64,000 nt of DNA, from the NCBI GenBank assembly GCA_964471565.1, contig CAYYFK010000002.1, positions 849-64,848 on the forward strand, given 5' to 3'. How positions within the stretch are numbered: the stretch's first letter is position 1; the number at the start of each line of letters is the position of its first letter. The DNA is from Candidatus Woesearchaeota archaeon (GTDB lineage Archaea; Nanobdellota; Nanobdellia; SCGC-AAA011-G17; PNOQ01). Position numbers and translations under genes: made by a program. The notes beneath the pieces were generated by a model. That model was given only the letters and a program-made list of their open reading frames with translations, did not search any database and was not told where the DNA came from. This document shows, one piece after another, positions 17,284-54,059 of the stretch.

Positions 17284-18212
17284 ATGCAGGAAAAAAACAA
17301 CTAATAAAACAAGGATATAGATTTACGGGAGAGCATAGTTCTGTAAAAATATGTGAATGGACAAAAAGAGCTCTAAAAAAAGAAGGAGTTTGCTATAAAC
17401 AAAAATTCTATGGAATCAACACAAGTCAATGTGTACAAATGACTCCAACAATGGTTTGTCCAAATAGATGTCAATTTTGTTGGCGTTCTTTAGATTTATA
17501 CACTGCAGAAGAAATGAAAGAGATTGACAACCCAAAAGAAATAATAAAAAAATCAGTAGAGCAACAAAAATTATTATTGGAGGGATTTGGAGGAAATAAA
17601 AATATCGATAAAGAATTATTAAACAAAGCATTAGATCCAAAACACTTCGCAATTTCTTTAACAGGAGAACCTACAATATACCCAAAACTAAATGAATTAA
17701 TAGCAGAATTACACAAACAAAAATTCACCTCTTTCCTAGTAACAAATGGAATGTTTCCAGAGGCCTTAGAAAAGCTAGAAGAATTACCAACCCAACTATA
17801 CTTATCTTTAGACGCACCAACAAAAGAACTATATAAAAAAATAGATAATCCAATGTTGAAAGATTACTGGGAAAGATTCAATAGATCTCTAGAGTTTTTA
17901 TCAAAAGCAAAAACAAGAACAGTGATTAGGATAACAGCAGTAAAAGAATTAAATATGCTCAATGAAGAAGATTATGCTAAACTAATAAATAAATCAAATC
18001 CAATGTTTGTAGAAATTAAATCGTATTCTTGGGTAGGGGAATCAAGAGAAAGATTAACAGAGGAGAACGTTCCTTCTTATGAAGATTGTTTAAGCTTTGC
18101 AAAAAAAATAGCAAAACAAATAAATTATAAAATAATAGATGAACATAGAGAATCAAAAGCAATTTTATTAGCAAAAGAAGATTTTCCAGAAAGGATTTTA
18201 AATTTTAATTAA
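17280..18212 (+). CDS. taw1: tRNA 4-demethylwyosine synthase Taw1 (TYW1, radical SAM)
   Basis: KICEWTKRALKKEGVCYK N-terminal Cys cluster plus CPNRCQFCWR radical-SAM motif; about 310 aa as in archaeal Taw1. Confidence 0.7.
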   Translation: MNAGKKQLIKQGYRFTGEHSSVKICEWTKRALKKEGVCYKQKFYGINTSQCVQMTPTMVCPNRCQFCWRSLDLYTAEEMKEIDNPKEIIKKSVEQQKLLLEGFGGNKNIDKELLNKALDPKHFAISLTGEPTIYPKLNELIAELHKQKFTSFLVTNGMFPEALEKLEELPTQLYLSLDAPTKELYKKIDNPMLKDYWERFNRSLEFLSKAKTRTVIRITAVKELNMLNEEDYAKLINKSNPMFVEIKSYSWVGESRERLTEENVPSYEDCLSFAKKIAKQINYKIIDEHRESKAILLAKEDFPERILNFN

Positions 18213-18794
18213 TTTTCCTAGTGGTCCAGGATTAATCAAAATAGTTTTTCCAATTTTATCCATCTCTCCAAAGTTTTCATGTAGATGTCCAGATAAAGCC
18301 AACATTGGTTTATTTTTTTCAATAAATTTTCTGTAAGACTTATTACCAACATGATCAAAATATTCTAGATTATCTAGTTTATTTCCATATGGGGGCTGAT
18401 GTGTAATCAAAACAACTTTTTTACCTTTTATTCTTTTTTCAACCGATTTAGAAACTTTTTCAAATTCTTTATTTTCACTACTGAATCCATCTCCACCATA
18501 ACCAAAGAAAACATAATCATTAATTTCAAAAATACCTCTATGTAAATAAATAATATTCTCAAATTTATCACATATCTTTTTCATATCTCCTGCTTCTTCA
18601 TGGTTTCCAGGTATAACTAAGAAGGGAATTTTGATTTTATTCAATTTTTCTAAGATTTCCCGCAGATTCTTTTCAAAAATAGTTAAATCTCCAGGACAAA
18701 TTATTAAATCTGGTTTTTTTGATCTAGCCAGTTTAGTGACCTCTCTGATGATTTGTTCATTTCCATGTGGATCTGTAAAAGCTAAAAGTTTCAT
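18198..18794 (-). CDS. calcineurin-like metallophosphoesterase
   Basis: MKLLAFTDPHG, ICPGDLT, VIPGNHE and GHLH motifs. Track start at 18890 is over-extended; ATG at 18794 gives the canonical N-terminus. Confidence 0.7.
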   Translation of the reverse strand: MKLLAFTDPHGNEQIIREVTKLARSKKPDLIICPGDLTIFEKNLREILEKLNKIKIPFLVIPGNHEEAGDMKKICDKFENIIYLHRGIFEINDYVFFGYGGDGFSSENKEFEKVSKSVEKRIKGKKVVLITHQPPYGNKLDNLEYFDHVGNKSYRKFIEKNKPMLALSGHLHENFGEMDKIGKTILINPGPLGKLIKI

Positions 18795-18825
18795 AAAAAA
18801 ACAAAGAAAGAAATGGTTTAAAAAG

Positions 18826-18927
18826 TTATGTTTCGGCAAGATATCCTTGAAAATAGGCACTATCGTACTCATCCATAGCACCAATCTCAATAAGCTCTTC
18901 TTGGTCCTCTAAAACGTAAGGATTCAT
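18826..18927 (-). CDS. small acidic ORF (33 aa), translationally coupled
   Basis: ATG overlaps upstream TGA (ATGA); preceded by GGGGGTGAT Shine-Dalgarno-like sequence; MNPYVLEDQEELIEIGAMDEYDSAYFQGYLAET. Confidence 0.3.
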   Translation of the reverse strand: MNPYVLEDQEELIEIGAMDEYDSAYFQGYLAET

Positions 18928-19052
18928 ACTATCACCCCCTCTTGTTTAAAAAATCGTATAAAGTCATCATTAACAGAAGTCCAGAATTGTGCCTCGGAAT
19001 CTATTTTTTTAAATTCCTCCCAATTTACATATTTTGTTGGTCTTATAAGCAT
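18924..19052 (-). CDS. small ORF (42 aa) downstream of conserved promoter element
   Basis: MLIRPTKYVNWEEFKKIDSEAQFWTSVNDDFIRFFKQEGVIV; the track ORF (to 19115) reads through the promoter element, so the start at 19052 is preferred. Confidence 0.35.
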   Translation of the reverse strand: MLIRPTKYVNWEEFKKIDSEAQFWTSVNDDFIRFFKQEGVIV

Positions 19053-19083: not shown

Positions 19084-19125
19084 CTATTTATATATCCTAT
19101 CCGCGTGCGTGGCAAGCTGGCAAGG
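19084..19125 (-). promoter_or_regulatory. TATA box plus upstream GC-rich direct-repeat box (copy A of a duplicated motif)
   Basis: Minus-strand CTTGCCAGCTTGCCACGCACGCGGATAGGATATATAAATAG, 37 nt upstream of the ATG at 19052; near-identical copy at 38084-38122. Confidence 0.45.
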
Positions 19126-19152
19126 AGAATTGTTACTTTAGAATTAAAACCA

Positions 19153-20559
19153 CTATTCTTTCAATTTCCATTTACCCTGGATTATAGGAATCATTTGAAC
19201 AAGTCCACCTTTGTACAAGACAGCATTTGCAGCCATCCATGAAGAAACATCGCCTTTATTATAGTCTAAAACTAATTCAGTACTTGTTCCAACAATAAAA
19301 GTATTTCTCTGTATTTCCGGGGTATGGCTATGCCCAGTAATACTTTTACCATGGGCATTTTCTCTACTTCTAATACTTCCTCTAGATCCAGAAATTCCTT
19401 TGTGTCCATGACTACCCAACTGCCAACCCCACCTTTTATAATCTGTATCTATTTTCAAAAAATTAACATTGGAAGGAATATCTCCCATCATTCTCAAGCC
19501 AACCTCAACCGGATCTTCTCCATCAATCATAGCTAGACCCAAATTCATTGCTATTTTCGTGTTCCAAGGCTCCTTAGTAAAATCTCCACTCTCTAGATAT
19601 CTATCCAAAAAGAAATGGTGGTTACAAGCAACAAGATTTACCTCCCTCTTCCCCATAAGTCTAGAAATCGTGCAAAGTTCATCATAAGCATTTGATAATT
19701 CCTCTTCAAGACTTAGTCTCCCCTTTTCCCAATTTTGGGCCCTACTCATTAAATTTTCTCTTTCATGGGGATTTACACTGTGTCCATTCAAAAAATCGTG
19801 CAAAAATAATCTATCTGGTTTGAAGAAATCTATCATTTCATAGTTGGCTTTCATAGTTTCTGGATCATCATCTCCAACATGTATGTCTCCTAAAACAAGG
19901 GCCTCAACTCCTGCCCATGCAGGTTTTCTTCCCTTATCATATTTGAGACCCATATCTATGAATTTTCCATTCTGCTGAGCCCTTATATGTCTAGCATTAT
20001 AAAAAGTATAATCAATAATCTCTACGACAACTGCCCCATACATATGGTCTCTTCTTGCAGCATCCCCCCTATGGTTACTAGGGTGGTAATTTGGATGTGT
20101 AATTACTCCGGTTGTCATCAAGAGTTTTGGTAAGTTAGCATTGCTAGCAGGAACCGCCTTCAATCTTTGTTTAGTATGTGGAAAAACTTTAGTACAATCT
20201 GTTTGAACAAACCTTTGCCTTCCTGAAGCAGGATCAACATTTTGAGGAGGAACCATCATATCGGACAACTCAATCCCCTCATTTAGTTTTTTAGTAAATC
20301 TATCATAAACATCGCTTCTTCCTCCAAAAAAAGGATGCATTGTTTCTTCGCTATTATCCATTCCAGGCATTCTTAGAATTATCATTTCCGCGCCTCTATC
20401 AGAACAGTATCTCTCTAAACCCCTTATTAATTCTTTATTCGGTGCCCCTCTAGAACTATCTCCTCTATATCTTTTAGCATGCTTTTCTGATTGAATGGCT
20501 TGAGCGGAAGTAATAACATAAATTCCCGATTTTGTTTCAGAAGAATTATTTTCGGCCAT
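19153..20559 (-). CDS. two-domain protein: unknown N-terminal domain plus C-terminal metallophosphatase-like domain
   Basis: LGDIHVGDDDPE, ACNHHFF, GSHGHKG and GHSHT motifs fit the calcineurin-like fold; Arg/His-rich and GC-richer than neighbours. Confidence 0.5.
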   Translation of the reverse strand: MAENNSSETKSGIYVITSAQAIQSEKHAKRYRGDSSRGAPNKELIRGLERYCSDRGAEMIILRMPGMDNSEETMHPFFGGRSDVYDRFTKKLNEGIELSDMMVPPQNVDPASGRQRFVQTDCTKVFPHTKQRLKAVPASNANLPKLLMTTGVITHPNYHPSNHRGDAARRDHMYGAVVVEIIDYTFYNARHIRAQQNGKFIDMGLKYDKGRKPAWAGVEALVLGDIHVGDDDPETMKANYEMIDFFKPDRLFLHDFLNGHSVNPHERENLMSRAQNWEKGRLSLEEELSNAYDELCTISRLMGKREVNLVACNHHFFLDRYLESGDFTKEPWNTKIAMNLGLAMIDGEDPVEVGLRMMGDIPSNVNFLKIDTDYKRWGWQLGSHGHKGISGSRGSIRSRENAHGKSITGHSHTPEIQRNTFIVGTSTELVLDYNKGDVSSWMAANAVLYKGGLVQMIPIIQGKWKLKE

Positions 20560-21235: not shown

Positions 21236-22279
21236 TTAAAACTCACTCAACTTCTTATTATAATTAACAACTTTAGATTTTTCTCTCATTTCACCCAAAG
21301 AAATCATTTTATTTTTATCTAACTCTTCTAATTTCCTATGAAATGTCCTATATGAAACTTCTCCAGAATACAAGTCAAATAATTCCTTAACAGTCATTCC
21401 AGAATTTTCCTTAATTAAATCTAAAATTTTCCTTTCTTCATCTCCAAAATCTTCAACTTTTTTTATTTTGAAGTTATCCATCTTTTCAATTGCTTTTTCA
21501 CAATGCTCGATCAAAATTTTTCTAGAGGCTTTCATCTCAGCAATATTTCCACTTTCCCTCAACAAGAAAATCCCAGTACGAACATCCCCATTATCAAATG
21601 CTTTACTAGAAACTAACTCCAAAACCTCTTTTTCAACAGAATCAGGAACAAAAGCATAACTTGCCCTATTTTTCAAAATATCCAAGGTTTCTTCATAATT
21701 ATAAGGTTTAAACTCTAAAACATCAGAATTTAACCTAGATTTTATTCTGCTATCCAGATTAACTATCCAATCATGATCATTAGCAATCATCAAAATACAC
21801 TTTTTATAAAAATCTTCAGAAAAGTTATACAAAATATCTAAATCTTTTACTCTATCTACTTCATCTAAAACTACAACAACAGATTTTTTGTTAATAATCT
21901 CAGAAACAACTTTCATTAGCTCATCTGTTCTTTTATTATGTACCCATTTGTAATTTAGCTGTTCACAGATATCTATTAAGATTTTATAGCTAGTATCTTT
22001 TTTCCAGCAATTTACATAAACAGTAAGAATATCTTCAGTTTTTTCTTCTAATTCTCTTAAAACATGTTTTATCGCTACAGTTTTACCAATTCCAGGAGCT
22101 CCAAAAATAAATAAATTCCTTCCAGACTTTTTTTGGAATAATGGTTTTATTACATCTGCAATATAATGCTGCTGATTTTCTCTGTGAGGTATCTCTTTAG
22201 GCACATAATCGTAATCTAGAGCTTGCTCATTAATAAAAAGCGATTCATCATTATGTAGAATATCATCAAATAATCCCAT
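21236..22279 (-). CDS. cdc6: Orc1/Cdc6 replication initiator
   Basis: AAA+ Walker A FIFGAPGIGKT, Walker B VVVLDEVD, C-terminal winged helix; 347 aa. Confidence 0.85.
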   Translation of the reverse strand: MGLFDDILHNDESLFINEQALDYDYVPKEIPHRENQQHYIADVIKPLFQKKSGRNLFIFGAPGIGKTVAIKHVLRELEEKTEDILTVYVNCWKKDTSYKILIDICEQLNYKWVHNKRTDELMKVVSEIINKKSVVVVLDEVDRVKDLDILYNFSEDFYKKCILMIANDHDWIVNLDSRIKSRLNSDVLEFKPYNYEETLDILKNRASYAFVPDSVEKEVLELVSSKAFDNGDVRTGIFLLRESGNIAEMKASRKILIEHCEKAIEKMDNFKIKKVEDFGDEERKILDLIKENSGMTVKELFDLYSGEVSYRTFHRKLEELDKNKMISLGEMREKSKVVNYNKKLSEF

Positions 22280-36443: not shown

Positions 36444-36514
36444 AGCGCACGCCCGGAATCGAACCGGGGATCAGAGGGTTGCAGCCTCTTGCCTTACCGC
36501 TTGGCCACGTGCGC
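36444..36514 (-). tRNA. tRNA-Cys (anticodon GCA)
   Basis: Minus-strand GCGCACG/CGTGCGC acceptor, anticodon arm AGAGG-CTGCAAC-CCTCT, T-arm CCCGG-TTCGATT-CCGGG, discriminator U; TATA ttttataaata about 25 nt upstream; overlapping track ORF 36317..36544 is spurious. Confidence 0.8.
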
Positions 36515-37217: not shown

Positions 37218-38063
37218 CTAAAGTTTAAGAGCTCCAATATCATTTATAAATTTATCTACAACACTCTTTTTACTACACCAAATCACCCAAGAATTGTTCG
37301 CTTTATCAAAATAAGGGGGTCTTACAGAAAGTCCAACAAATCGAAATAATAAATAAACCTGATTTAAAAATTTCTTTGATTTTTGCCTTAATTGAAAACA
37401 TAATTTTCCTCTATGAAAATATTTATTCCCATCGCTATCCATCAATCCCCTTAGAAAATACTTTATATAAACAGAATCATTTTTTATTTTAGCTGGAACT
37501 CTAATGGAATCATATTTCTCACCAATAGGAATTTCATAATAAGTGTTCAAGAAAAATAATAAAGCCTTAGAATAGATACAAACATCATAACAGCCCTTGC
37601 CCTTATGACAACTTGGCCTAATTCCAAAAAGATGCTCCATTAATTCAGAAACGTGATTTATTCTCTCTTTCCCTTTAACAGCAATCCTAACAGAATAACT
37701 TTGCCTCTTTAATTCCCTTTCTTTACTTATACAAAGACATCCATCTCCTAACAACAAACCCAAAAAGTAATACAAACGAAAATCCACATTTTCTGGAAGA
37801 TTAATTGTATTCCCACTATTAATAGACAAAGAACTAACATTTACTCTTTCAATATTATTTTTTTCACAAATATCAATTAAACAAGAAACCGGAATAGGTC
37901 TTTCTTTTCGTTTCCAATAATAAATAGATCTTTCAGAAACCCCTTCAACCTCTTTAGGATTTAAATTTGAAATAGTTTCTTCAAGGGCAAGATCATTAAA
38001 AAGGATGCAAATATTCTTTTTATTCGATATCAATCTTTTTAAATCTTTAACACCCAATTCCAT
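37218..38063 (-). CDS. LAGLIDADG-family homing-endonuclease-like protein (two motifs)
   Basis: YYFLGLLLGDGCL and KYFLRGLMDSDGNKYF dodecapeptide motifs; start moved to MELGVKDL (ATG 38063) because the upstream 42 codons read through the promoter element. Confidence 0.65.
   Translation of the reverse strand: MELGVKDLKRLISNKKNICILFNDLALEETISNLNPKEVEGVSERSIYYWKRKERPIPVSCLIDICEKNNIERVNVSSLSINSGNTINLPENVDFRLYYFLGLLLGDGCLCISKERELKRQSYSVRIAVKGKERINHVSELMEHLFGIRPSCHKGKGCYDVCIYSKALLFFLNTYYEIPIGEKYDSIRVPAKIKNDSVYIKYFLRGLMDSDGNKYFHRGKLCFQLRQKSKKFLNQVYLLFRFVGLSVRPPYFDKANNSWVIWCSKKSVVDKFINDIGALKL
37243..37256 (-). promoter_or_regulatory. candidate TATA box for the tRNA-like gene, inside the 3' end of the LAGLIDADG ORF
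   Basis: Minus-strand taaatttataaa about 30 nt upstream of the tRNA-like 5' end. Confidence 0.3.
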
Positions 38064-38083
38064 GGTCTTCAATAGTGAAATCC

Positions 38084-38123
38084 ATTTATAAATTATTTCC
38101 GCGTGCGTGACAAGCTGACAAGA
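38084..38123 (-). promoter_or_regulatory. TATA box plus upstream GC-rich direct-repeat box (copy B)
   Basis: Minus-strand CTTGTCAGCTTGTCACGCACGCGGAAATAATTTATAAAT, about 21 nt upstream of the LAGLIDADG ATG; matches copy A at 33 of 35 upstream positions. Confidence 0.45.
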
Positions 38124-38172
38124 AAACCTTACTACAGCAAAGATTATAAAGATAAATAACTCCTCAAAATCA

Positions 38173-53495: not shown

Positions 53496-54059
53496 ATGTA
53501 TAAAAAACTAAGAAATCTTTGGAAATCTCCAGAAAAGTCTCTAATGAGAGACAGATTAATAGAGTGGAGAAGAGATCCAGCAATACTGAGGATAGATAAG
53601 CCTACTAATATTTCTTCAGCTAGGTCAATTGGATACAAAGCAAAAGAAGGTTTCATAATAGTTAGAGTGAGAGTAATCAGGGGCGGAAGAATGAGGCCCC
53701 AAATAAAGAAAGGTAGACGTTCAAAAGCAGCTAGAAGAAAAAAGATCGTTGGAATGTCATATCAATGGATAGCAGAACAAAGAGCTCAGAAATTCTATAA
53801 AAATCTAGAGGTATTAAACTCATACAAAGTAGGAAGAGATGGAAAACATTTTTGGTATGAAATAATCTTAATAGATCCACAACATCCAGTAATAAAAAAA
53901 GATAGAAAATTAAACATGCTTGGAAAAAAAGCAAACAAAAAGAGAGTAACACACGGTTTAACATCTGCAGCAAAGAAGAGTCGTGGACTAAGTAAAAAAG
54001 GAAAAGGTGCAGAAAAAATAAGACCTGGAAGAAGAGCTAACAAAGGACGTTCAAAGTAA
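53496..54059 (+). CDS. rpl15e: ribosomal protein L15e (eL15)
   Basis: MYKKLRNLWKSP...RLIEWRRDPAILRIDKPT...IIVRVRVIRGGR; start moved to Met7 of the track ORF. Confidence 0.85.
   Translation: MYKKLRNLWKSPEKSLMRDRLIEWRRDPAILRIDKPTNISSARSIGYKAKEGFIIVRVRVIRGGRMRPQIKKGRRSKAARRKKIVGMSYQWIAEQRAQKFYKNLEVLNSYKVGRDGKHFWYEIILIDPQHPVIKKDRKLNMLGKKANKKRVTHGLTSAAKKSRGLSKKGKGAEKIRPGRRANKGRSK

What the first reader, a model, noticed from the sequence alone, without database searches (positions are those of the whole stretch)
19084..19125. Duplicated GC-rich direct-repeat box fused to a TATA box (copy A), an island of about 70% GC in 30% GC DNA
Minus-strand CTTGCCAGCTTGCCACGCACGCGGATAGGATATATAAATAG lies 37 nt upstream of a small-ORF operon (42-aa ORF, ATGA-coupled 33-aa ORF, then metallophosphoesterase). 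The 25-nt GC-rich part contains a tandem GCTTGCCA repeat followed by CGCACGCGG. An almost identical box (CTTGTCAGCTTGTCACGCACGCGGA, differing only C to T in each half-repeat) followed by a TATA box occurs at 38084-38122 in front of the LAGLIDADG gene. Position (BRE-proximal) and repeat structure suggest an operator for a dedicated regulator, or a shared mobile promoter cassette.
Basis: seen in the sequence. Interest (0 to 1): 0.6.

Follow-up and report, generated by a model that had tools for sequence, protein, structure and literature searches.

The report
Conserved archaeal promoter-upstream operator box
A 24-base GC-rich box set exactly 6 bases in front of a TATA box is a conserved control site shared by two, and in one relative three, promoters in a group of uncultivated Woesearchaeota; it is most likely the landing site of a still unidentified DNA-binding regulator, which makes it a real but fairly ordinary kind of element.

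Summary
CTTGYCAGCTTGYCACGCACGCGG occurs twice on the minus strand (19101-19124 and 38099-38122), with none expected by chance. Each copy lies 6 nt upstream of a TATA box.

The window is a Woesearchaeota (DPANN archaeon) chromosome. In related genomes the module 8-nt repeat + 8-nt repeat + GCACGCGG + 6 nt + TATA sits in front of the same genes:
- the ORF1-ORF2-metallophosphoesterase operon, in 8 species-level loci;
- the LAGLIDADG gene, in the window plus 2 relatives with the full box and 2 more with a single repeat;
- a second, unrelated LAGLIDADG gene in one relative.

Box and TATA are 85-100% identical across species, while flanking DNA is 35-55% identical. In two diverged relatives both repeats changed in the same way (CTTCTCA x2; CATGACA/CATGAAA), with spacing kept.

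RNA structure, a dispersed repeat, a tRNA or att fragment, an ORB and the I-DmoI target were all tested and rejected.

The best reading is an operator or upstream activating site, read by two identical DNA-reading units in tandem and phased against BRE/TATA, that defines a tiny regulon. The regulator is unknown. The LAGLIDADG protein and the operon's own small proteins are only candidates. It is a new member of a known kind, of moderate to low interest.

The parts
19101..19124 (-). Box A: repeat 1 CTTGCCAG (19124-19117), repeat 2 CTTGCCAC (19116-19109), GC block GCACGCGG (19108-19101)
   Evidence: orthologous copies in L001/L024, L002/L006, L003/L021-23, L012, L018-20, L027, L028
19087..19100 (-). 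6-nt spacer ATAGGA (BRE position, 19100-19095) and TATA box TATATAAA (19094-19087) of promoter A
   Evidence: Spacing is identical in all 12 distinct full-length boxes (and the third copy). Identification as BRE/TATA is inferred from archaeal promoter architecture.
19132..19137 (-). Upstream AGTAAC motif, 7 nt before box A (the related AGTAAG lies 5 nt before box B)
   Evidence: A recurring AGTAA[C/G]-like motif lies 4-7 nt upstream of the box in winA, L001, L018, L028, winB and L009. Weak evidence.
18924..19052 (-). ORF1, 42 aa, a clade-specific small protein with a Shine-Dalgarno GAGGTGAT; first gene driven by promoter A
   Evidence: The family has 15 database clusters with the invariant motif K..W.EF...DSEA.FW.
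18826..18927 (-). ORF2, 33 aa, acidic, ATGA-overlapped with ORF1
   Evidence: conserved even in L028
18198..18797 (-). Metallophosphoesterase, 199 aa, third gene of operon A
   Evidence: PF00149, 6.5e-20; orthologues; YfcE-like
38099..38122 (-). Box B: CTTGTCAG (38122-38115), CTTGTCAC (38114-38107), GCACGCGG (38106-38099)
   Evidence: orthologous copies in L009 and L013, single-repeat forms in L014/15 and L029/30
38085..38098 (-). Spacer AAATAA (38098-38093) and TATA box TTTATAAA (38092-38085) of promoter B. The ATG follows 18 nt after the TATA box, so the transcript is probably leaderless.
   Evidence: inference from archaeal promoter architecture
37218..38066 (-). LAGLIDADG protein, 281 aa (282 codons including the stop): an N-terminal extension of about 90 aa plus an I-DmoI-like double-LAGLIDADG core; driven by promoter B
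36444..36514 (-). tRNA-Cys(GCA), downstream of the LAGLIDADG gene on the same strand; this linkage is conserved across the protein family
21236..22279 (-). orc1/cdc6. In the least rearranged relative (L028) box A lies directly after this gene; in L027 only one 125-aa called ORF intervenes.

Best explanation
The box is a protein-binding cis-regulatory site, an operator or upstream activating sequence, that forms part of a composite archaeal promoter. The layout is [AGTAA(C/G)] - N4-7 - two tandem 8-bp direct repeats CTTGNCAN - GC block GCACGCGG - 6-bp BRE-position spacer - TATA box. Assuming TATA lies near -26, the box spans roughly -60 to -37.

The likely mechanism is that two identical DNA-reading units, either two subunits or two copies of one domain, bind head-to-tail to the two repeats. 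The GC block and the fixed phasing place this factor directly against TFB/TBP at BRE/TATA. From there it either recruits TFB, which is the usual position for archaeal activators, or occludes it.

The same factor thereby co-regulates a very small regulon. One member is the ORF1-ORF2-metallophosphoesterase operon next to orc1/cdc6. The others are one or two LAGLIDADG genes, the first of which is linked to tRNA genes.

Shown: the element is present, conserved and phased, it is restricted to these promoters, and its two repeats change in concert. Inferred: that it binds protein, and the direction of regulation (I lean towards activation, about 60:40). Unknown: the identity of the factor.
For: (1) The box is non-random and unique to two sites in 64 kb.

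(2) It is conserved at orthologous promoters:
- A-type in front of ORF1-ORF2-MPE in L001/L024, L002/L006, L003/L021-23, L012, L018-20 and L027, even where the gene upstream of the box differs.
- B-type in front of the LAGLIDADG orthologue in L009 (70% protein identity) and L013 (70%).

(3) Selection footprint across 9 species-level sequences:
- repeat 1: 85% identity
- repeat 2: 90%
- GC block: 97%
- TATA: 91%
- 40 nt upstream: 35%
- next 20 nt: 46%

(4) Spacing is invariant: 6 nt from box to TATA in all 12 full-length examples, and 15 nt from the proximal repeat to TATA in all 14, including the single-repeat forms in L014 and L029.

(5) The two repeats change in concert with the architecture kept. 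L027 has CTTCTCAA|CTTCTCAC. L028 has CATGACAT|CATGAAAT|GTACGCGA|GTGAGC|TATATAAA.

(6) A third copy with the same spacing lies in front of a second, unrelated LAGLIDADG gene on the contig that also carries an A and a B copy, all on the same strand.

(7) In collection scans every AT-rich hit falls in these gene contexts. The other hits are coding DNA of GC-rich genomes at about the number expected by chance.

(8) No RNA structure signal was found.
Against: - No binding or expression data exist, and all organisms involved are uncultivated.
- No conserved transcription-factor gene is linked to the box. The small wHTH genes next to box A in L012 and L018 are unrelated to each other and absent elsewhere.
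- An 8-bp repeat period puts successive sites on different faces of the helix, which is unusual for many dimeric regulators.
- Concerted change of two adjacent 8-mers could also arise by loss and re-duplication of one unit. Single-repeat forms do exist.
- More distant LAGLIDADG orthologues (38-47% identity; L016, L025, L026) have no box, so the B-type site is young.
Confidence: 0.65

Rival explanations
1. The box is the recognition site of the LAGLIDADG protein or proteins encoded next to it. Either the protein is a domesticated, I-DmoI-like homing endonuclease that binds its own promoter and the operon-A promoter as a regulator (as WhiA does, and as I-TevI represses its own gene), or it still cuts or nicks there.
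For: - Of the three box-bearing promoters on one contig, two drive LAGLIDADG genes, and these belong to two different families.
- The B-type gene family is single-copy, full-length, conserved at 37-70% identity and syntenic, which looks like a host gene rather than a selfish one.
- The model is confident (pLDDT 91) with an I-DmoI-like core (TM 0.8) plus an extra N-terminal domain.
- A 24-bp asymmetric site fits the footprint of a monomeric LAGLIDADG enzyme.
- Both metal-binding Asp residues are kept (25/26 and 26/26 sequences), so cleavage is possible.
- The DNA just upstream of box A is a hot-spot of gene-content change.
- Precedents for homing endonucleases acting as regulators are reviewed in PMC3384342.
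Against: - The two domains of a LAGLIDADG core read their half-sites in two-fold (inverted) orientation. Direct repeats that change in concert therefore do not fit that binding mode.
- Two LAGLIDADG proteins that share only about 32% identity over part of the core are unlikely to recognise the same 24-mer.
- More distant orthologues of the same family lack the box.
- The N-terminal domain gives no HTH hit in Pfam.
- Similarity of the box to the I-DmoI target is not significant (14/25 matches, 316 of 5000 shuffles do as well).
- An intact site kept beside the gene in many species is the opposite of a homing site.
Confidence: 0.15
2. The box and TATA are a promoter cassette that was copied between loci, perhaps travelling with LAGLIDADG genes. 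The similarity would then be shared ancestry rather than shared regulation.
For: The same module is found at three different genes. One of them, the second LAGLIDADG gene in L024, sits in an insertion between L11 and the tRNA-Pro/L37ae block that is present in L018 and L021.
Against: - Identity between copies stops at the edges of the box and TATA. The spacer is 68% identical, the following 20 nt 46% and the upstream 40 nt 35%.
- There are no terminal repeats or target duplications.
- Each copy is maintained at its own orthologous position across species whose proteins are only 61-70% identical, which requires selection on the box itself.
- There were no copies in 2.9 million viral contigs.
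Confidence: 0.08
3. The box is an origin-recognition-box-like site for Orc1/Cdc6, because box A lies directly downstream of orc1/cdc6 in L028, with one small ORF between in L027.
For: orc1/cdc6 lies 0-3 kb upstream of box A in every locus that reaches that far. Thermococcales have a second ORB cluster downstream of cdc6 (PMC1904270).
Against: - The box lacks the invariant TTCC...GAA core of ORB and mini-ORB elements.
- There is no cluster of repeats or AT-rich unwinding element nearby.
- Copies B and C are not next to cdc6.
- Strict phasing with a TATA box is a promoter property.
Confidence: 0.05
4. The box is a remnant of a tRNA gene or an att site flanking an integrated element, or it is part of a structured RNA.
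For: The two copies are direct repeats 19 kb apart. By eye, the plus strand of the box resembles the 5' part of tRNA-Cys.
Against: - The local-alignment score to tRNA-Cys (21) equals that of random places in the window (22, 21).
- No integrase was seen among the neighbouring genes that were scanned.
- The copies are conserved in genomes whose intervening content differs.
- Folding z-scores range from -0.9 to +0.7.
- The variable positions are not compensatory.
- There was no Rfam hit.
Confidence: 0.02

Closest known systems
Archaeal upstream activator sites immediately 5' of BRE/TATA (for example Ptr2 sites in Methanocaldococcus, TFB-RF1 site in Pyrococcus); named from established knowledge, not tested here
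   Same: It is non-coding and repeated, lies directly upstream of the BRE position, and has fixed phasing to the TATA box. It serves a handful of promoters.
   Different: The sequence is unrelated. The repeats are direct with an 8-bp period plus an extra GC block. No Lrp/Ptr2-type or TFB-RF1-type regulator gene is linked. Binding is not shown.
Tandem 8-bp operators of ribbon-helix-helix repressors (MetJ 'metbox' type), usually autoregulatory; from established knowledge
   Same: It consists of two abutting 8-bp direct repeats. It lies in the promoter of an operon that begins with a very small protein (ORF1, 42 aa), which would suit autoregulation.
   Different: ORF1 gives no RHH match in Pfam or PDB. 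Its model is an extended N-terminus plus one long helix rather than the beta-alpha-alpha fold. The system is archaeal, with a TATA/BRE promoter.
WhiA (DUF199) and I-TevI: homing-endonuclease folds acting on their own promoters (PMC3384342)
   Same: A LAGLIDADG-fold protein with an extra domain, conserved as a host gene, has a specific conserved site in its own promoter and in at least one other promoter.
   Different: WhiA has lost the acidic catalytic residues and carries a C-terminal HTH. Here both Asp residues are kept and the extra domain is N-terminal. No evidence shows that this protein binds the box, and the profile match to WhiA is only E = 0.32.
Origin recognition boxes (ORB / mini-ORB)
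   Same: The length is similar, it is a GC-richer island in AT-rich DNA, and it lies next to orc1/cdc6 (copy A only).
   Different: It has no TTCC/GAA core, no cluster and no unwinding element. It is tied to TATA boxes and to genes away from cdc6.

Membership tests
Promoter-proximal transcription-factor binding site (operator/UAS) of an archaeal promoter | Lies in non-coding DNA at a fixed position relative to BRE/TATA of the regulated gene | tested here: met
   There are 6 nt from box to TATA in 12/12 full boxes and 15 nt from the proximal repeat to TATA in 14/14.
Promoter-proximal transcription-factor binding site (operator/UAS) of an archaeal promoter | Conserved across species above the neutral background of the surrounding intergenic DNA | tested here: met
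   The box is 85-97% identical against 35-46% in the flanks.
Promoter-proximal transcription-factor binding site (operator/UAS) of an archaeal promoter | Repeated half-sites that evolve together | tested here: met
   L027 has CTTCTCA in both repeats and L028 has CATGACA/CATGAAA. Position 5 varies freely.
Promoter-proximal transcription-factor binding site (operator/UAS) of an archaeal promoter | Bound by a specific protein, and mutation changes transcription | not testable with these tools
   This needs EMSA or footprinting and in vitro transcription.
Dispersed repeat / MITE | Many copies, unrelated to gene starts, with terminal repeats | tested here: not met
   There are 2 copies in 64 kb, 3 hits in the genome collection and 0 in viral contigs, all at the same promoters.
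Origin recognition box | TTCC...GAA core; clustered copies around an AT-rich unwinding element next to orc1/cdc6 | tested here: not met
   The core is absent (sequence compared), there is no cluster, and only copy A is near cdc6.
LAGLIDADG homing site | Site present in the endonuclease-free allele and disrupted or altered next to the endonuclease gene, with half-sites in pseudo-two-fold arrangement | tested here: not met
   An intact box is kept beside the gene in 3 species. It consists of direct repeats. Cleavage itself is not testable.
att site / tRNA-gene fragment of an integrated element | Direct repeats that bound an element carrying an integrase and match a tRNA gene | tested here: not met
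   The tRNA similarity is at chance level. No integrase was seen among the genes scanned near the two copies, and both copies are conserved at orthologous promoters.
Structured RNA element | Stable fold and compensatory variation | tested here: not met
   Folding z-scores range from -0.9 to +0.7, there is no Rfam match, and the variable positions are unpaired.
WhiA-like domesticated LAGLIDADG regulator (for the neighbouring protein) | Loss of the catalytic acidic residues; an HTH domain; binds its own promoter | tested here: not met
   Both Asp residues are conserved, no HTH is detected by Pfam, and the profile match to WhiA is E = 0.32. Binding is not testable.

The most novel reading that the evidence does not exclude
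The box is the shared address of a small 'cut-and-control' circuit. A chromosomally fixed, catalytically intact I-DmoI-like LAGLIDADG protein, and in some genomes a second one, would recognise the box in its own promoter and in the promoter of the orc1/cdc6-adjacent ORF1-ORF2-phosphoesterase operon. It would act as an archaeal counterpart of WhiA or I-TevI autoregulation, or as a site-specific nickase or endonuclease. Occasional cleavage at box A would then explain why the DNA immediately upstream of that box is a hot-spot for foreign gene insertion (a T5 A1-like gene, an ABC transporter, small wHTH genes).
Probability: 0.15. Interest if true: 0.65.

Novelty: new member of a known kind. Interest (0 to 1): 0.35.

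Why it matters
Almost nothing is known about gene regulation in DPANN archaea, which cannot be grown alone. This gives a clean, comparative-genomics-defined cis-element with exact phasing to the core promoter, a defined mini-regulon and natural specificity variants (CTTGNCA, CTTCTCA, CATGACA/CATGAAA). It is therefore a ready-made substrate for in vitro binding and transcription tests with recombinant proteins. It also links an unstudied, vertically inherited LAGLIDADG protein family, which has intact catalytic residues and is tied to tRNA genes, with an orc1/cdc6-adjacent small-protein operon.

Tried and rejected
- **I-DmoI target.** The box matches the I-DmoI target at 14/25 positions, and 316 of 5000 shuffles do as well. 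The right half of that target was checked against PMC2847234; the left half came from memory. Rejected.
- **tRNA-Cys.** The box's plus strand resembles the 5' half of tRNA-Cys with a Smith-Waterman score of 21, the same as unrelated places in the window. Rejected.
- **RNA structure.** Neither strand of either copy folds better than shuffled controls, and Rfam finds only three tRNAs in the window.
- **Weaker copies.** Searches with up to 7 mismatches found none in the window, and an nhmmer profile over 360 kb of related loci found none apart from the third copy in L024.
- **ORB-like repeats near cdc6.** None found.
- **ORF1 as a ribbon-helix-helix protein.** There is no Pfam, NCBIfam or PDB match, and the AlphaFold model is one long helix. 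Left only as a weak candidate.
- **Divergent 125-aa gene at copy B as co-target or regulator.** It is not conserved; only 36 aa match in L013.
- **Small wHTH genes next to box A in L012 and L018.** They are not homologous to each other and are absent elsewhere.
- **Literature.** Searches for the box sequence and for Woesearchaeota promoters found nothing relevant.
- **Pairing A and B copies from more genomes.** Only two same-genome sets were obtained: the window and scaffold_1591.

Full report
**1. The observation**

The 24-mer is present twice, both times on the minus strand:
- copy A, 19101-19124: CTTGCCAGCTTGCCACGCACGCGG
- copy B, 38099-38122: CTTGTCAGCTTGTCACGCACGCGG

No other match exists with up to 3 mismatches, and shuffles give 0. 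Allowing up to 7 mismatches still gives none. The sub-motif CACGCACGCGG is also unique to the two sites.

Box A is 71% G+C in a window of 29-36% G+C. It is among only a dozen such islands; the others are tRNAs, coding DNA or one stretch not examined.

Each box is followed by a 6-nt spacer and a near-consensus TATA box:
- Promoter A then has a Shine-Dalgarno sequence and a 42-aa ORF. A 33-aa ORF overlaps it by ATGA, and a 199-aa metallophosphoesterase follows.
- Promoter B has an ATG 18 nt after the TATA box that opens a 281-aa LAGLIDADG protein.

**2. What genome this is**

The window encodes Orc1/Cdc6 and archaeal translation genes. A scan of one genome per GTDB species found the exact pattern only in three Candidatus Woesearchaeota MAGs. 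Viral contigs gave nothing.

A slightly relaxed pattern in 241 million metagenome records gave nine loci. Three are AT-rich Woesearchaeota-like loci in the same gene contexts. Six are coding DNA of GC-rich organisms, about the number expected by chance for 20 specified bases.

**3. Conservation at two orthologous promoters**

The A-type box with its TATA precedes the ORF1 orthologue in L001/L024, L002/L006, L003/L021-23, L012, L018-20 and L027. L028 carries a diverged A-type box at the same place, before an unrelated 60-aa first ORF followed by ORF2 and the phosphoesterase. This holds although the gene just upstream of the box differs from locus to locus:

| Locus | Gene(s) upstream of box A |
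|---|---|
| window, L024 | T5 A1-like gene |
| L018 | ABC transporter and a 94-aa gene |
| L021 | cold-shock protein and a 110-aa gene |
| L012 | ArsR-like gene |
| L028 | nothing; the box follows orc1/cdc6 directly |

The B-type box precedes the LAGLIDADG orthologue in L009 (70% protein identity) and in L013 (70%; one change, CGCGG to CGCAGG). In two orthologues at 50% identity (L014/15 and L029/30) only the proximal repeat GCTTGCCA remains, still exactly 15 nt from the TATA box. Orthologues at 38-47% identity (L016, L025, L026) have no box.

Anchored comparison of nine species-level sequences gives these identities:

| Segment | Identity |
|---|---|
| 40 nt upstream | 35% |
| repeat 1 | 85% |
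| repeat 2 | 90% |
| GC block | 97% |
| spacer | 68% |
| TATA | 91% |
| next 20 nt | 46% |

This is a selection footprint confined to the box and TATA. It is not the trace of a recent copy.

**4. Internal logic of the box**

The module reads as three 8-mers plus a 6-nt spacer and TATA:

CTTGNCAN | CTTGNCAC | GCACGCGG | N6 | TATA

In the two most diverged A-type promoters, however, both repeats carry the same changes while all spacings are kept:
- L027 (phosphoesterase 61% identical): CTTCTCAA | CTTCTCAC
- L028 (55% identical, with an unrelated first small ORF): CATGACAT | CATGAAAT | GTACGCGA | GTGAGC | TATATAAA

The same substitution arising in both units is very unlikely if they evolved independently. 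It points to two identical reading heads arranged in tandem. The alternative is loss and re-duplication of one unit under selection for two, and single-repeat forms do exist.

A short AGTAA(C/G)-like motif recurs 4-7 nt upstream of the box in several A and B copies, with a looser AGTATAAC before the third copy. I regard this as suggestive only.

**5. A third target**

A profile search of all related loci found one further copy, at L024 20055-20078:

CTTGCCAT | CTTGTCAC | GCACACGG | ATAGAA | TTTATAAA

Its spacing is identical. It lies in front of a second LAGLIDADG gene that is only distantly related to the first.

This copy is on the same contig as an A and a B copy, and all three are on the same strand. 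The gene sits in an insertion relative to L018 and L021. So two of the three box-bearing promoters in that genome drive LAGLIDADG genes. That is not plausibly chance, and it ties the element functionally or historically to this gene class.

**6. The neighbouring proteins**

*LAGLIDADG family.*
- It has about 60 database clusters of 274-305 aa at 37-70% identity.
- It is single-copy in the window.
- It is syntenic with leuRS in L009, L013 and L014, as in the window.
- A tRNA-Cys follows on the same strand in every locus examined. In L009, L025, L026 and L029 another tRNA lies between the gene and tRNA-Cys: an intron-containing one whose 5' end supplies the last codons of the ORF in L025 and L029, and an intronless tRNA-Arg(TCT) just after the stop in L026.
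- Both LAGLIDADG aspartates are conserved, in 25/26 and 26/26 sequences.
- The AlphaFold model is confident (pLDDT 91), and its core superposes on I-DmoI with TM 0.8 on the target.
- The N-terminal 90 residues give no Pfam match.

It therefore looks like a host-fixed and possibly still active endonuclease. It is not a WhiA-type dead scaffold.

*ORF1.* This is a narrow, clade-specific family of 15 clusters with no known homologue. Its model is an extended N-terminus plus one long helix.

*ORF2.* It is acidic and more widely conserved.

*Phosphoesterase.* It is YfcE-like.

**7. Mechanism**

The position corresponds to roughly -60 to -37 if TATA is centred near -26. This is an inference from archaeal promoter architecture. 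The strict phasing, the tandem repeats and the restriction to a few promoters all fit a sequence-specific factor that touches the TFB/TBP complex. Sites immediately upstream of BRE are typically activator sites in archaea (established knowledge), so I lean towards activation. Against that, the near-consensus TATA boxes would also suit repression.

The candidates are:
- a product of operon A acting in autoregulation. ORF1's distribution matches that of the full box, and L028, which has a different first ORF, also has different repeats. This is a single contrast confounded by phylogeny;
- the LAGLIDADG protein. The arguments for and against are set out in the Rival explanations section of this report;
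- an unlinked factor.

**8. Rivals rejected**

- Structured RNA.
- tRNA or att remnant.
- Dispersed repeat.
- ORB: the box has no TTCC/GAA core, there is no cluster, and only one copy is near cdc6.
- Similarity to the I-DmoI target.
- Mobile cassette: there is no flank identity.

**9. Verdict**

This is a real, conserved, lineage-specific promoter-upstream operator that defines a mini-regulon in a Woesearchaeota clade. It is a new member of a known kind. Interest is moderate to low (0.35).

Noticed in passing
window 19153-20559 (-): A 468-aa protein has no Pfam or NCBIfam hit but a strong match to PHROG 1745, 'DNA transfer protein' (E = 1.5e-86; from memory, the family of phage T5 A1). It carries metallophosphatase-like motifs (GDIHVGDDD, GHSHTPE). 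It occupies a variable slot between orc1/cdc6 and box A that holds unrelated genes in other species.
   Followed up: partly
L024 20055-20597 (same contig as L013): A third box copy with identical spacing to a TATA box lies in front of a second, unrelated LAGLIDADG gene. That gene lies in an insertion between L11 and the tRNA-Pro/L37ae block, and there is no counterpart in the window.
   Followed up: partly
window 36444-36514 and 37218-38066; L009, L013, L014, L016, L025, L026, L029: The LAGLIDADG gene family is always followed on the same strand by tRNA-Cys(GCA). In L009, L025, L026 and L029 another tRNA comes first; in L025 and L029 it contains an intron and its 5' end supplies the last codons of the ORF (C-termini such as ...APVAQPG). 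This suggests a co-transcribed protein-tRNA unit.
   Followed up: partly
window 18198-18797 (-): The operon's metallophosphoesterase matches PADLOC candidate defence model PDC-S10 (6.9e-22). This may only reflect the common fold.
   Followed up: no
window 53677-53701: An isolated GC-rich stretch, TCAGGGGCGGAAGAATGAGGCCCCA, has complementary ends (GGGGC...GCCCC). It was not examined further.
   Followed up: no
L012 350-628 (-) and L018 9293-9577 (-): Small winged-helix-type genes are transcribed divergently from box A in two species (ArsR family in L012, HTH_5 5.9e-09). They are unrelated to each other and absent from the window.
   Followed up: yes
window 19132-19137 and 38128-38133: A short AGTAA(C/G) motif lies 5-7 nt upstream of both boxes and of several orthologous copies. 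It may be a further part of the regulatory module.
   Followed up: partly
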